Shown: positions 2,146-54,808 of the stretch, one piece after another
Layout: every line of letters starts with the position of its first letter
Numbering within the stretch: position 1 is the stretch's first letter
From: Eledone cirrhosa
Taxonomy: Eukaryota
Direction of reading: 5' to 3'
Assembly (NCBI GenBank): GCA_964016885.1
Contig: OZ024740.1
Span: forward strand, 430,466,001-430,530,000
Length of the DNA stretch: 64,000 nt
The notes under the pieces: model-generated
The model's input: the letters and a program-made list of their open reading frames with translations, nothing else
Told to the model about the DNA's origin: nothing
The model's database searches: none
Program-made: the position numbers and the translations under genes

Positions 2146-3388
2146 ATATATGTAAAGATGGCTGACAAGTAATAACAAGTTGAGGGGGAGATGTGATCAT
2201 ATATATATGTAAAGATGGCTGACAAGTAATAACAAGTTGAGGGGAGATGTGATCATATATATATATGTAAAGATAGCTGACAAGTAATTACAAGTTGAGG
2301 GGAGATGTGATCATATATGTATATAAAGATGGCTGAAAAGTAATAACAAGTTGAGGGGAGATGTGATCATATATATATGTAAAGATGGCTGACAAGTAAT
2401 AACAAGTTGAGGGGAGATGTGATCATATATGTATATAAAGATGGCTGACAAGTAATAACAAGTTGAGGGGAGATGTGATCATATATATATATGTAAAGAT
2501 GGCTGACAAGTAATAACAAGTTGAGGGGAGATGTGATCATATATATATGTAAAGATGGCTGACAAGTAATTACAAGTTGAGGGGAGATGTGATCATATAT
2601 GTATATAAAGATGGCTGACAAGTAATAAGTTGAGGGGAGATGTGATCATATATATATATGTAAAGATGGCTGACAAGTAATAACAAGTTGAGGGGAGATG
2701 TGATCATATATATATGTAAAGATGGCTGACAAGTAATAACAAGTTGAGGGGAGATGTGATCATATATATATGTAAAGATGGCTGACAAGTAATAACAAGT
2801 TGAGGGGAGATGTGATCATATATATATGTAAAGATAGCTGACAAGTAATAACAAGTGGAGGGGAGATGTGATCATATATATATGTAAAGATGGCTGAAAA
2901 GTAATAACAAGTTGAGGGGAGATGTGATCATATATATATGTAAAGATGGCTGACAAGTAATTACAAGTTGAGGGGAGATGTGATCATATATATATATGTA
3001 AAGATGGCTGACAAGTAATAACAAGTTGAGGGGAGATGTGATCATATATATATGTAAAGATGGCTGACAAGTAATTACAAGTTGAGGGGAGATGTGATCA
3101 TATATATATATGTAAAGATGGCTGACAAGTAATAACAAGTTGAGGGGAGATGTGATCATATATATATGTAAAGATGGCTGACAAGTAATTACAAGTTGAG
3201 GGGAGATGTGATCATATATATATATGTAAAGATGGCTGACAAGTAATAACAAGTTGAGGGGAGATGTGATCATATATATATGTAAAGATGGCTGACAAGT
3301 AATTACAAGTTGAAGGGAGATCATATCTCCCCTCAACTTGTAATTACTTGTCAGCCATCTTTACATATATATATGATCACATTTCCTC
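2146..3388. repeat. Minisatellite, ~56-58 bp unit, ~20 copies, ending in one inverted unit
   Basis: Unit (AT)nGTAAAGATGGCTGACAAGTAATAACAAGTTGAGGGGAGATGTGATC; reverse-complement unit at ~3325-3388. Confidence 0.95.
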
Positions 3389-3422
3389 CTTAGCTAAATT
3401 GGTATTTTATATTCTTGTATAG

Positions 3423-3639
3423 ACTGCTATTGCTTTGGCTATTGCTCAAGAGCTTGGTAGCAAAGTTCCATTCTGTCCAATGGTTGGCAGTGAAGTGTAC
3501 TCCAGTGAAATTAAGAAGACAGAAGTATTAATGGAGAATTTCCGCCGTGCCATTGGTTTACGTATTAAAGAGACAAAAGAAGTATATGAAGGTGAAGTGA
3601 CAGAAATAACACCAGCAGAAACAGAAAACCCAATGGGAG
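3423..3639 (+). CDS. RUVBL1: RuvB-like 1 (pontin) coding exon A, first in window
   Basis: AG at 3421-3422, GT at 3640. Encodes [72 protein letters not shown], matching RUVBL1 just after Walker A. 217 nt, ends phase 1. Confidence 0.97.
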
Positions 3640-3656
3640 GTAAATATCAGATTTTT

Positions 3657-4003
3657 ATCATCATCACCGTTTTACATCCGTTCTTTCACACTAGCATGGG
3701 TTAGACGGGTCGTCCTGTTGTCGGCAGTGTCCAGTCGGCTGACCTTTTCTTGCTCATACGGGAACTGATTCTGGCTTGATTTCTACAGCTGGGTGCTTTT
3801 TTTCCGTGGCACCTACACATCCACTTTACAGTAGAATGATAGGGACCCCAGTCCTATCATCTCATTTCTACAGCTGAGTAAACTGGAGCAATGTGAAATA
3901 AAGTGTCTTGCTCAAGGAAACAACATATCACCCAGTCCGAGTATTGAACTCACAACCTTTCGATTGCAAGCCCAATGCTCTAACCACTAAGCCATGTGCC
4001 TTC
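3657..4003 (-). mobile_element. tRNA-derived CORE-type SINE with RTE-like 3' tail
   Basis: Reverse complement of the SINE at 45222: A/B-box head, CTTGAGCAAGACACTT core and RTE 3' end with (GAT)n. Confidence 0.8.
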
Positions 4004-4034
4004 ACAATTATGTCAGATTCAATTTGTATATATG

Positions 4035-4475
4035 TGTAGATGAGAGACAGGAGGTGTTCTGCATTACAAGACAGTGGATCAGGGTGTTGGGGGAAAAGTG
4101 TGTTAGAAATGACTCCAGTGCACTTAACATCACTTGTTCTCAAAAGAAAGAGGCTTGGAAATGTTACTATGAGAGATTGATGAATGGGGGGAAGAGAGAC
4201 TACCGCCAACTTACCAGACAGAAGGACCGACCAACTATTGAAGTTGACAGTCTTAAGGTCAAAGAAGCAATCAAGGATATGAAGAATGGTAAAGCCACAA
4301 GAGCATCAGAGATAGTTGCCGAGATGCTAAAAGTGTTGGGAAAAGTAAAACGTGAACTGCATTGTCAATCAAGTAATACAAAATAGAGTCTACCGAATGA
4401 CTGGCGCAGGAGTACAATAATAAATTACTCTAAGAAGGAGCAACTGAAAACGAATAAAACTACTGGACCAAGTTG
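4035..4475 (+). mobile_element. Old degenerate RTE fragment
   Basis: Translates to RQEVFCITRQ...GEKCVRND...AWKCYYERLMN...AIKDMKNGKA...EIVAEMLK, homologous to the RTE ORF. Confidence 0.8.
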
Positions 4476-4884
4476 TTACTAAACATTTTAGTTCAATATC
4501 TCCCCAACCACTTATCCTGCCCATTTCTTCCTATAACCATAGAGTGCCTCACTTAACTTTTAGAATCCTCTAATGATATAGCAGAAAATGTCTAAAAACA
4601 GATTAGTTAATTCTAATGTTTATAGTATCTTTACTAATGGACAGAACCTTGTGAAAATTTACAGTAAACTAATAACTTTAATTTACAAGAATGTCTTGCT
4701 AATGCTGTTTCAAGTGGTACAGGATATCAAGAGTTAAACACAATTTTACGTGCTCCTATAATTGTATTCCCCTGTGACTCATTCCTTTCCAGTGTTTTCC
4801 TAAAGTAGACTGCTAAAGGTACCCAATCACCTAAATTCGTTGGACAAATGCTAAGCAACATTTGTTTCAACTCTTTATATCCTA

Positions 4885-52876: not shown

Positions 52877-53046
52877 TACATGGGTGATTACTGGGCTTCT
52901 ATTCAGTCATGCTGCATCCTTCGCTATCAAAGTTATTAAAACTTCATTTTTATTATCATCAATAGTTTCTTAAAATATTTGAAATGTGCAGTTTTTTTAA
53001 AAGAAGTGTTAATAATTTTTGTCTTGACTCTTCTTCTCCTCAACAG

Positions 53047-53138
53047 ATCCTTGGTATTCGGTCGCAGACAGAATCTATTCACATCAGTGATGAATCGCTA
53101 CAGTTACTCAGTATGACTGGAACCAATACCACACTCAG
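53047..53138 (+). CDS. RUVBL1: RUVBL1 exon G
   Basis: ttctcctcaacAG|ATC. Encodes ILGIRSQTESIHISDESLQLLSMTGTNTTL(R), collinear with RUVBL1 IIKIRAQTEG...GTKTTLR; donor GTAAT at 53139. Confidence 0.93.
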
Positions 53139-53735
53139 GTAATATATTAGTAATCTTGTTACATTTTATTAGTACTTCTTCCGAAATACACTCTATTTTA
53201 ATTAATTAATTGAGAATGTTGAAGGATTCCCTAAAATTATTATTTCATGACTAAGATAGTAACTTAATGTAAGGTTCTTATATAAAATTATGTTGGAAGA
53301 TTTTAATTTAAATTGGAAACCTTTATAATGGGTGGTTTTATTTCATAGATTCAGAGCTGGATTTGGTTGGATTGGTAACTAAAGGGTTAATCTTCAGCCA
53401 GTATTATAAAGCTGGATGTTGTTATTGTTTAACCCTATGTCACTCCTGTTTATTAAATGCCTTCCAGCCATGACCATCCTGTCTCTTTATTTCAAAGATT
53501 AAAATGTCCCATTGTTTGCTGTTTACTTTTCTTTTTTAATTTAAGATGGTAGGATATGTTTTGAGGGAAATTTGGTGCTGTTTTTAGCAGGTCAACTAAC
53601 CATATAGAAGCTCCATTATCAGCTCAGTAATTTTTCTTTTTTTAACTGCTTATTTAAGGAGAAAGGGGCTCAGTATCTAGGGTGTCCTTGACTGGTAAGT
53701 GGGAAAAGGGGACGTTATCCTCAAACTGGAGATCA

Positions 53736-53962
53736 GGAGTGAAAATCTGCTAATGGCACCCAAGGGGCAGGTGGTGGGTTCTCCCTACCACCCATATATT
53801 GATGTTCTTGGAGTGAAACTCTGCTAATGGTACCCAAGGGCCAGGTGATGGTGATGGAGTATACCTACCACTCATATAGTAAAGGTATTCTGGGGCTGAA
53901 ACTCTACTAATGGTGCCCCAGGTTCAGGTGGTGGTAAGTTATGTCTACCACCCATATATTGA
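53736..53962. repeat. Degenerate ~75-85 bp tandem repeat x3
   Basis: GGAGTGAAA(A/C)TCTGCTAATGG..CCAAGGG.CAGGTGGTGG...CTACCACCCATATA repeated. Confidence 0.7.
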
Positions 53963-54654
53963 AGATATTAACAAATTAACAACAATTTTCCTTTTTAGGT
54001 TTGTCGCCAGTAGTCTGAGACATCATCATCATCATTGTTTTAACAGCCCTGTCCCTTCTAGCAAGGGTTGGACAGGTTCACAATGACCAAGTCAGTACTG
54101 AAGTAGGGCTACTGATCTCTCAGACAAACTGAGAGATTTGCTTTTCATTCTATTGCGTGTACAGGGGAGGTTGTCTTGTCTCTGACACAACTGAAAAATC
54201 CTCCCAACCCTTCGTTTAGCAGGCTTTCTATGGCAGGATGCCCTTCCTATTACCACCATTAGAGAGGCTGTCATGTCCTTAACATGACTATGGGGTCCTA
54301 CTAACCCTTTGTTTGACAAGTTTACAGCTAGATGCCCTTCCTATCCCCAACCACTTTATAGCATGTACTGAGTGTGTTTATCATGTAGATCACCAACATT
54401 AGGGAATGTATGACGGAAATATATGAATGTTTATTTAAACGATCGCTAACCGGAAGTGTTGACATTTGAAAATTTTAAAGAAGTGAATCTTTAAATAAAC
54501 AAAATATATTTAATCAACAGCTACGAAAATTAGTAGATAAATTATGTAATATTCATTCATTATTTATTCAAAGTAATCCTACTTATTTTACAAACGGGAT
54601 AAAAAAATATATTCTGAGCGCAGTCCTGCACTCCTTACTTTGTTATAGTTTAGA

Positions 54655-54788
54655 TTAGTCCAAAAAAGACCTATATTTTAATTATACTAAATTAGTCCAA
54701 AAAAGACATATTTTAATTATACTAAATTAGTCCAGTAAAGACTTATATTTTAATTATATCAAATTAGTCCAGTGAAGACTTATATTTT
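54655..54788. repeat. ~35-37 bp tandem repeat x4 just upstream of the exon H acceptor
   Basis: TTAGTCCA(AAA/GTA)AAGAC(C/T)TATATTTTAATTATACTAAA repeated. Confidence 0.85.
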
Positions 54789-54808
54789 CTTCTTATTTCT
54801 TAATTCAG

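What the first reader, a model, noticed from the sequence alone, without database searches (positions are those of the whole stretch)
2146..54808. Private tandem repeats parked against RUVBL1 3' splice sites
Seen: five of eight acceptors have an unrelated, intron-specific tandem array ending close upstream. The 57-mer ends ~35 nt before exon A, the 31-mer ~3 nt before exon B, the 27-mer ~34 nt before exon E, the 30-mer ~170 nt before exon G and the 37-mer ~20 nt before exon H. A 79-mer lies ~630 nt before exon F; exons C and D have none. Copy numbers run from ~4 to ~370, like stages of one process, and no unit recurs in another intron. Inference: sequence next to the acceptor is locally duplicated and amplified, giving a route to intron gigantism or a way to tune elongation and splicing, distinct from dispersed satellite families.
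Basis: partly seen in the sequence, partly recalled or inferred. Interest (0 to 1): 0.8.

Follow-up and report, generated by a model that had tools for sequence, protein, structure and literature searches.

The report
Gene-private minisatellites swelling octopod RUVBL1 introns
Five introns of an octopod RUVBL1 gene hold repeats found nowhere else in the genome, four ending within 40 bases of a splice acceptor, but 280 control acceptors elsewhere show no acceptor preference, so this is likely an extreme case of ordinary local repeat growth and not a new rule.

Summary
The 57-mer reaches 36 nt only through one opposite-strand copy, because most of that array lies inverted. Five units are genome-private; the 79-mer partly matches 39 other loci. 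Inside this gene the clustering beats chance: 4 of 9 acceptors within 40 nt, permutation p=3e-5, or 2e-3 without transposon sequence. It does not generalise. In 280 acceptors and 278 donors from other genes of this genome, strong arrays lie within 40 nt of 0 acceptors versus 3 donors, within 100 nt of 7 versus 10. Arrays fill 10% of that control DNA and are about 2-3-fold enriched beside splice sites, significantly so for donors only. Best reading: local duplication of a short single-copy intron remainder (203-499 nt in the four introns), grown by block duplication and likely stopped at the branch-point/pyrimidine tract; this gene is likely a tail case. Units hold no exon sequence, so these are not 'mirages', which the scan noted on other DNA. 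A spliced contig uses the true acceptors B, C and H. No function is shown.

The parts
3423..3639 (+). RUVBL1 coding exon A (third coding exon; two more lie upstream of the window)
13039..13196 (+). exon B; both junctions seen in a spliced contig
16192..16341 (+). exon C; nearest array 1305 nt upstream
23262..23325 (+). exon D; nearest strong array 5334 nt upstream
41379..41577 (+). exon E
47032..47134 (+). exon F
53047..53138 (+). exon G
54809..54968 (+). exon H to stop codon; G-H intron (1670 nt) skipped in a spliced contig
2145..3321 (-). 57-mer array, ~21 copies, inverted relative to the 10 copies upstream of the window and to the last copy; part of a likely 3.3-kb inversion with an RTE-type retroelement piece
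3319..3386 (+). last 57-mer copy, original orientation, 36 nt before acceptor A
5137..5251 (+).
5295..13035 (+). 31-mer x250, ends 3 nt before exon B; holds both branch-point-like motifs of that acceptor; contains a 1230-nt exact block repeated 1949 nt downstream
14680..14886 (+).
17630..17927 (+).
24035..33345 (+). 27-mer x349, 5' part; starts 709 nt after donor D; includes a duplicated left end of the hAT-like element near 33087
33346..40625 (.). hAT-like DNA transposon relic inserted in the 27-mer array (14-nt terminal inverted repeats, 8-nt target duplication), with nested RTE and piggyBac-like insertions
   Evidence: the hAT label rests on recalled hallmarks, no Pfam hit
40625..41345 (+). 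27-mer x27, 3' part, ends 33 nt before exon E
42044..42498 (-). 112-mer x4 made from the 3' end of the RTE-type element, 466 nt after donor E; a dispersed unit
45599..46400 (+). 79-mer x~10, 631 nt before exon F; unit partly matches a dispersed sequence
51204..52874 (+). 30-mer x56, ends 172 nt before exon G
54654..54788 (+). 37-mer x3.7, ends 20 nt before exon H; not recognisable in one contig of a related organism

Best explanation
These are locus-private intronic minisatellites that likely began as short tandem duplications of the intron's own single-copy DNA and grew by copying blocks of units, and their line-up at this gene's acceptors is likely a tail case of a mild, two-sided splice-site enrichment rather than an acceptor-specific mechanism. 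Shown: units private; block duplication inside the arrays; little single-copy intron sequence left (203-499 nt in the four introns with abutting arrays); dispersed repeats scarce within about 70 nt of either splice site; no acceptor excess in control genes. Inferred: seeding by slippage or microhomology repair; growth by unequal exchange; purifying selection letting an array reach but not disrupt the branch point and pyrimidine tract; neutrality.
For: Privacy: genome-wide exact counts equal window counts for the 27-, 31- and 30-mers (239/239, 219/219, 50/50); all 33 matches of the 57-mer lie in this intron; the 37-mer has 1 match. Growth by blocks: 1230-nt exact repeat at lag 1949 in the 31-mer; the transposon's left end was copied together with flanking 27-mers. 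Background: 620 arrays, 10.3% of 1.67 Mb of control DNA; 78 of 151 strong control arrays have no match elsewhere in the sample. Strong arrays near 280 acceptors vs 278 donors: 0 vs 3 (<40 nt), 7 vs 10 (<100), 12 vs 14 (<200). In the 46 most array-dense control segments (0.33 strong arrays per kb): 9 of 66 acceptors vs 11 of 64 donors within 200 nt. Dispersed-repeat cover is 3-9% within 40 nt of both site types and 31-40% beyond 200 nt. For acceptors A and E the branch-like motif lies just outside the array. In a related organism's contig, alignment stops inside the last 37-mer copy with 134 nt left unaligned, while the flank aligns with 32 differences and 9 gaps over about 530 nt.
Against: RUVBL1 remains a strong outlier: 4 of 9 within 40 nt against 3 of 280 under the loosest private definition (Fisher p=1.5e-5), and 0 of 66 in array-dense controls under the strong definition. 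Transposon exclusion leaves p=0.002, and tripling the per-site chance gives 1.6e-3. Calling it a tail case therefore leans on selection from many genes and windows, which I assumed and did not measure. No control exon lies within 50 Mb of the window on its contig. Loosely defined private arrays are x3.2 enriched within 40 nt of acceptors (3 vs 0.9, p=0.066). No single-copy ancestral unit was seen: the related organism had no contig over exon B. Control splice sites come from my own heuristic scorer, not from RNA.
Confidence: 0.7

Rival explanations
1. A real local bias: in this gene or chromosomal domain, transcription- or splicing-coupled damage near the 3' splice site (polymerase pausing, R-loops) would seed duplications just upstream of acceptors.
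For: 4 of 9 acceptors within 40 nt and 0 of 9 donors within 200 nt; outlier against every control definition; three arrays stop 20-36 nt from the exon, one at 3 nt.
Against: No acceptor excess in 280 vs 278 control sites, nor in controls within 15 Mb of contig ends (5 of 98 acceptors vs 6 of 97 donors within 200 nt). The threshold is post hoc and this is one gene. No mechanistic signature was found at the array ends.
Confidence: 0.14
2. One reading: acceptor-adjacent sequence is preferentially amplified across the genome and drives intron expansion.
For: All arrays together are x1.6-2.0 enriched within 40-100 nt of acceptors (p about 0.03); single control acceptors do carry private arrays at 25, 31 and 36 nt.
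Against: Donors are equally or more enriched in 10 of 12 permutation comparisons, and none of the 12 Fisher tests favours acceptors. Dispersed repeats cover about 32% of control DNA against 10% for arrays.
Confidence: 0.06
3. The arrays are kept because they tune splicing or elongation of RUVBL1, for instance by supplying spare branch points or decoy acceptors.
For: The 31-mer carries both branch-like motifs of acceptor B, and 133 of its 348 AG sites score as weak acceptors by my scorer. Human tandem repeats can change splicing (PMC10078293, passages).
Against: Units are unrelated to each other; the 37-mer is not recognisable in a related organism (one contig); the one spliced contig uses the true sites; arrays were freely interrupted or inverted by transposons.
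Confidence: 0.05
4. The arrays are amplified fragments of old transposons or dispersed satellites and only look private.
For: True for the 112-mer and the 46-49-mers (RTE 3' end) and partly for the 79-mer (39 other loci, 77-95% identity over 39-86 nt).
Against: No match outside the intron for the 57-, 31-, 27-, 30- and 37-mers. The pattern searches were exact and the DNA search skips common words, so diverged relatives could be missed.
Confidence: 0.05

Closest known systems
Locus-specific intronic minisatellites / VNTRs (for example human splicing-associated tandem repeats, PMC10078293, passages read)
   Same: Units of 27-79 nt, head to tail, confined to one locus, inside introns, some next to the branch point or 3' splice site.
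   Different: Arrays here reach 8-10 kb and several sit in one gene; length polymorphism and splicing effects are untested here.
'Mirage' minisatellites of amphioxus (Adh3, globins BflGb6 and BflGb9; PMC3087553, passages read)
   Same: Local tandem duplication at intron ends in a marine invertebrate; normal splicing apparently unaffected; both 5' and 3' boundaries are involved in that paper.
   Different: Mirages span the exon-intron boundary. No unit here contains the acceptor plus exon head (longest shared prefix 0-4 nt).
Human F7 intron-7 37-bp VNTR (PMC1557585; only the search listing and the start of the abstract seen)
   Same: Minisatellite abutting a splice site.
   Different: Donor side, and its first unit spans the boundary.
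Satellite-filled gigantic introns of Drosophila Y-loop genes (PMC6508621, passages read)
   Same: Tandem DNA lengthens introns of a transcribed gene.
   Different: There: megabases of simple satellite making over 99% of the locus. Here: 1.7-18 kb introns, complex private units, and transposons contributing as much or more in most introns.

Membership tests
Locus-specific intronic minisatellite | Head-to-tail units of about 10-100 nt | tested here: met
   TRF periods 27-79, 90-97% matches
Locus-specific intronic minisatellite | Unit confined to one locus | tested here: met
   57-, 31-, 27-, 30-, 37-mers; the 79-mer only partly
Locus-specific intronic minisatellite | Lies in a spliced intron | tested here: met
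   GT-AG introns with an open joined frame; spliced contig across A-B, B-C and G-H
VNTR | Copy number varies between alleles or individuals | not testable with these tools
   Only collapsed contigs and reduced-representation reads were offered
Mirage minisatellite | Unit spans an exon-intron boundary | tested here: not met
   No AG plus exon head in any of 6 arrays
Dispersed satellite or transposon-borne tandem repeat | Same unit at many loci | tested here: not met
   Not met for five units; met for the unlisted 112- and 46-49-mers and partly for the 79-mer
Intron gigantism (Y-loop type) | Megabase-sized, satellite-filled introns | tested here: not met
   Introns 1.7-18 kb; definition from PMC6508621
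   280 acceptors vs 278 donors
Splicing-regulatory tandem repeat | Repeat length changes splicing | not testable with these tools
   One spliced contig only, no allelic series

The most novel reading that the evidence does not exclude
Splice sites themselves seed minisatellites in octopod genomes: arrays are born within about 100 nt of exons at two to three times the background rate, and in some genes or chromosomal domains such as this one the seeding is polarised to the 3' splice site, so that the branch-point region is copied hundreds of times and becomes a main driver of intron growth.
Probability: 0.14. Interest if true: 0.65.

Novelty: new member of a known kind. Interest (0 to 1): 0.27.

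Why it matters
As it stands, it is a clear worked example of how introns of a housekeeping gene in a 3-Gb octopod genome grow: private arrays, transposons nested in arrays, an inversion, and an acceptor whose branch-point-like motifs lie inside a 250-copy repeat yet which is spliced correctly. The side result, a 2-3-fold excess of minisatellites within 100 nt of splice sites (clearest at donors), is directly testable on annotated cephalopod genomes. If the acceptor polarity were real for a domain, it would tie repeat birth to co-transcriptional splicing; the control sample argues against that as a general rule.

Tried and rejected
Laying the related organism's contigs on the 31-mer/exon B junction gave 0 records: no evidence either way. 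No RNA holder was listed as such; run X4 is treated as transcript-derived only because its contig skips GT..AG introns. Contig depth over the 31-mer (about 700-900 against 10-13 in single-copy flanks) is consistent with a real multi-copy array but is no copy number, and those runs may be the assembly's own sample. The hazard analysis was replaced by within-segment permutation, because differences between genes inflate near/far ratios. A search for neighbouring host genes as a region-matched control failed: 92 unique-sequence frames in the flanks gave only retroelement domains and one weak below-cut-off hit. Fold-back signature at array ends: only the 57-mer shows an inverted arm among the three regions scanned (57-mer; 79-mer; 30- and 37-mer), and it is better explained by an inversion. 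A megablast look for long internal duplications printed nothing; a direct lag scan found them. Mirage reading rejected. The 29 exons added last were too few to test alone. Literature searches listed no paper on acceptor-biased minisatellites in cephalopods; the library lacks most subscription journals, and no supplements were read.
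Full report
The gene. The window is G000:C1:430466001-430530000 in a 3.0-Gb genome, about 12 Mb from the end of a 443-Mb contig. Eight exons with GT..AG introns join into an open frame of 380 codons plus stop; two more coding exons lie upstream. Exons A and E hit Pfam TIP49 and exon H hits TIP49_C. Exon H is 98% identical to ruvB-like 1 of Octopus bimaculoides, Argonauta hians and O. sinensis, so the host is inferred to be an octopod. A contig from run X4 joins A to B, B to C and G to H at exactly these sites.

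The observation. TRF and the exon map give gaps to the next acceptor of 3 nt (31-mer x250), 33 (27-mer x349+27), 172 (30-mer x56), 20 (37-mer x3.7) and 631 (79-mer). The 57-mer run ends 101 nt before exon A; one further copy on the opposite strand ends 36 nt before it. Ten copies in that same orientation lie at -1632..-1039, and two RTE-type pieces, 93.6% identical and facing each other, lie between. The simplest reading is an array whose middle was inverted, so I count it as ending at 36 nt. Taking 9 non-transposon arrays in 9 introns, 4 end within 40 nt of an acceptor against 0.19 expected (p=2.8e-5); with five more arrays added, 4 against 0.25 (p=8e-5); none starts within 200 nt of a donor. 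The pattern is real in this gene.

Privacy. Exact genome-wide counts equal the window counts for the 27-mer (239 of 239), 31-mer (219 of 219) and 30-mer (50 of 50). All 33 matches to the 57-mer lie in its intron; the 37-mer has one match. The 79-mer has 3 matches here and 39 partial ones elsewhere, with 40 of 76 candidates scored, so it is likely an amplified relic of a dispersed element. The 112-mer and 46-49-mers derive from the RTE 3' end. Exact patterns miss diverged relatives.

The genome-wide test. Five Pfam searches of G000 returned 379 rows. I kept 300 as likely internal exons, chosen by eye, and dropped 79: RUVBL1's own 7, long single-exon-like matches, matches with several stops, and duplicate scaffold copies. 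Flanks were obtained for 294 of 300 (loci of those searches). In 1.67 Mb there are 620 arrays of period 10 or more, 10.3% of the bases. Acceptors versus donors with an array within 40/100/200 nt: all arrays 11/22/34 versus 19/33/46; strong arrays (period 20 or more, 3 or more copies, 80% match) 0/7/12 versus 3/10/14; loosely defined private arrays 3/5/8 versus 2/7/8; long private arrays 1/3/4 versus 1/6/7. No Fisher test is below 0.12. Within-segment shuffles at <100 nt give, for strong arrays, x1.7 for acceptors (p=0.11) and x3.2 for donors (p=0.0009); for all arrays x1.6 (p=0.026) and x2.6 (0 of 20000 shuffles). In the first-pass set, masking dispersed repeats lowered the strong-array figures to x1.5 and x2.2. 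In the 46 most array-dense segments, 9 of 66 acceptors and 11 of 64 donors have a strong array within 200 nt; within 15 Mb of contig ends, 5 of 98 and 6 of 97. RUVBL2 has one at 69 nt from an acceptor and one at 79 nt from a donor. So there is a mild excess beside splice sites, at least as strong at donors, and no acceptor rule. Limits: unannotated exons in the flanks, heuristic splice sites, five gene families, and a repeat mask built from the sample alone.

Why this gene looks extreme. Once arrays and dispersed repeats are removed, the four introns with abutting arrays keep only 449, 432, 203 and 499 nt, while B-C, C-D and intron 1, which have none, keep 1282, 2295 and 2505 nt. In controls, dispersed repeats cover 3-9% of bases within 40 nt of either site type and 31-40% beyond 200 nt. 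Resident sequence therefore survives near intron ends, and an array copied from it will tend to lie there (inference). Excluding transposon bases moves the in-gene p to 0.002 at 40 nt and 0.023 at 200 nt; a 2-3-fold per-site excess gives 3e-4 to 1.6e-3. With on the order of 10^4 genes per genome (recalled, not measured) and a scan of many windows, such a gene is expected to turn up. This does not prove chance: against the controls the gene is still an outlier at p=1.5e-5, and I found no neighbouring host exons for a region-matched control. A local bias keeps about 14%.

How the arrays grow. The 31-mer has 20 unit types among 244 units, with a 37-unit block repeated, a 1230-nt exact repeat at lag 1949: shown. 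The 27-mer is split by a 7.3-kb element with terminal inverted repeats and an 8-nt target duplication taken from the unit; its left end was later copied together with flanking units, so the array predates the insertion and kept duplicating whatever lay in it. The hAT label rests on recalled hallmarks; Pfam gave no hit for its frames. A contig of organism B aligns from 55300 back to 54774, inside the last 37-mer copy, and its remaining 134 nt do not align, with no depth over 54662-54742. This suggests the array is younger than the split, on one contig. Unequal exchange or slippage as the molecular cause is inferred from established minisatellite biology. For acceptors A and E the branch-like motif lies just outside the array; for B both candidates lie inside it; for H none was found at the usual distance. 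Selection as the fence is inferred.

Comparison. It works like, and passes the tests run here for, a locus-specific intronic minisatellite; length polymorphism could not be tested. It is not a mirage: PMC3087553 (passages) defines those as spanning an exon-intron boundary, and no unit here does. PMC10078293 (passages) shows that human repeats near 3' splice sites can alter splicing; nothing here shows that. PMC6508621 (passages) reserves intron gigantism for megabase introns. PMC1557585 was seen only as a listing.

Verdict. Observation confirmed with small corrections; interpretation partly supported (private, locally amplified) and its general, acceptor-specific part not supported. New member of a known kind; interest 0.27.

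Noticed in passing
window 37341-39026 (-): Open 561-codon piggyBac-type transposase frame (Pfam DDE_Tnp_1_7, E=7e-85) nested in the hAT-like relic; related element ends recur at 13208-14671 and 35384-39410, so several copies sit in this one gene.
   Followed up: partly
window 62453-64000 and L068-L072: A 23-mer array continues past the window, is interrupted, and then runs for more than 45 kb (2009 copies up to the end of the fetched DNA); no host exon was found around it.
   Followed up: partly
L065-L066 (about 12-23 kb upstream of the window): Large 64-mer (about 130 copies) and 21/23-mer (about 90) arrays upstream of RUVBL1 exon 1: the region is array-rich outside introns too.
   Followed up: no
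window 17990-21620 (+), 47606-50588 (-), 60119-61088 (+): Young RTE-type retroelement copies, 97-98% identical to each other; the first looks near full length.
   Followed up: partly
L067 end to window 3386: Likely 3.3-kb inversion inside intron 2, with a 62-nt hairpin junction (3-nt loop) at 3321-3325, about 100 nt from acceptor A; an assembly artefact was not excluded.
   Followed up: partly
window 17200-17410 and 17630-17940: A single-copy version of the 25/78-mer segment lies about 400 nt upstream of its tandem form: a local duplication caught early.
   Followed up: no
G000:C18:5898170 (L138) and G000:C3:145259478 (L101): Two control arrays overlap a splice site itself (120-mer x2.3 across an acceptor, 24-mer x2.4 across a donor): mirage-like candidates in this genome.
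   Followed up: no
control set, 278 donors: Arrays are enriched about 2.6-3.6-fold within 40-100 nt of donors, more than at acceptors; unexplained, and partly reduced by masking transposons.
   Followed up: partly
window 40538-41356 (+): The 27-nt unit reads as an open 9-residue repeat for 272 codons, a by-product of the unit length; no sign of coding use.
   Followed up: no
window 56555-56686 (-): Short fragment matching a reverse-transcriptase RNase H-like domain, below the Pfam cut-off.
   Followed up: no
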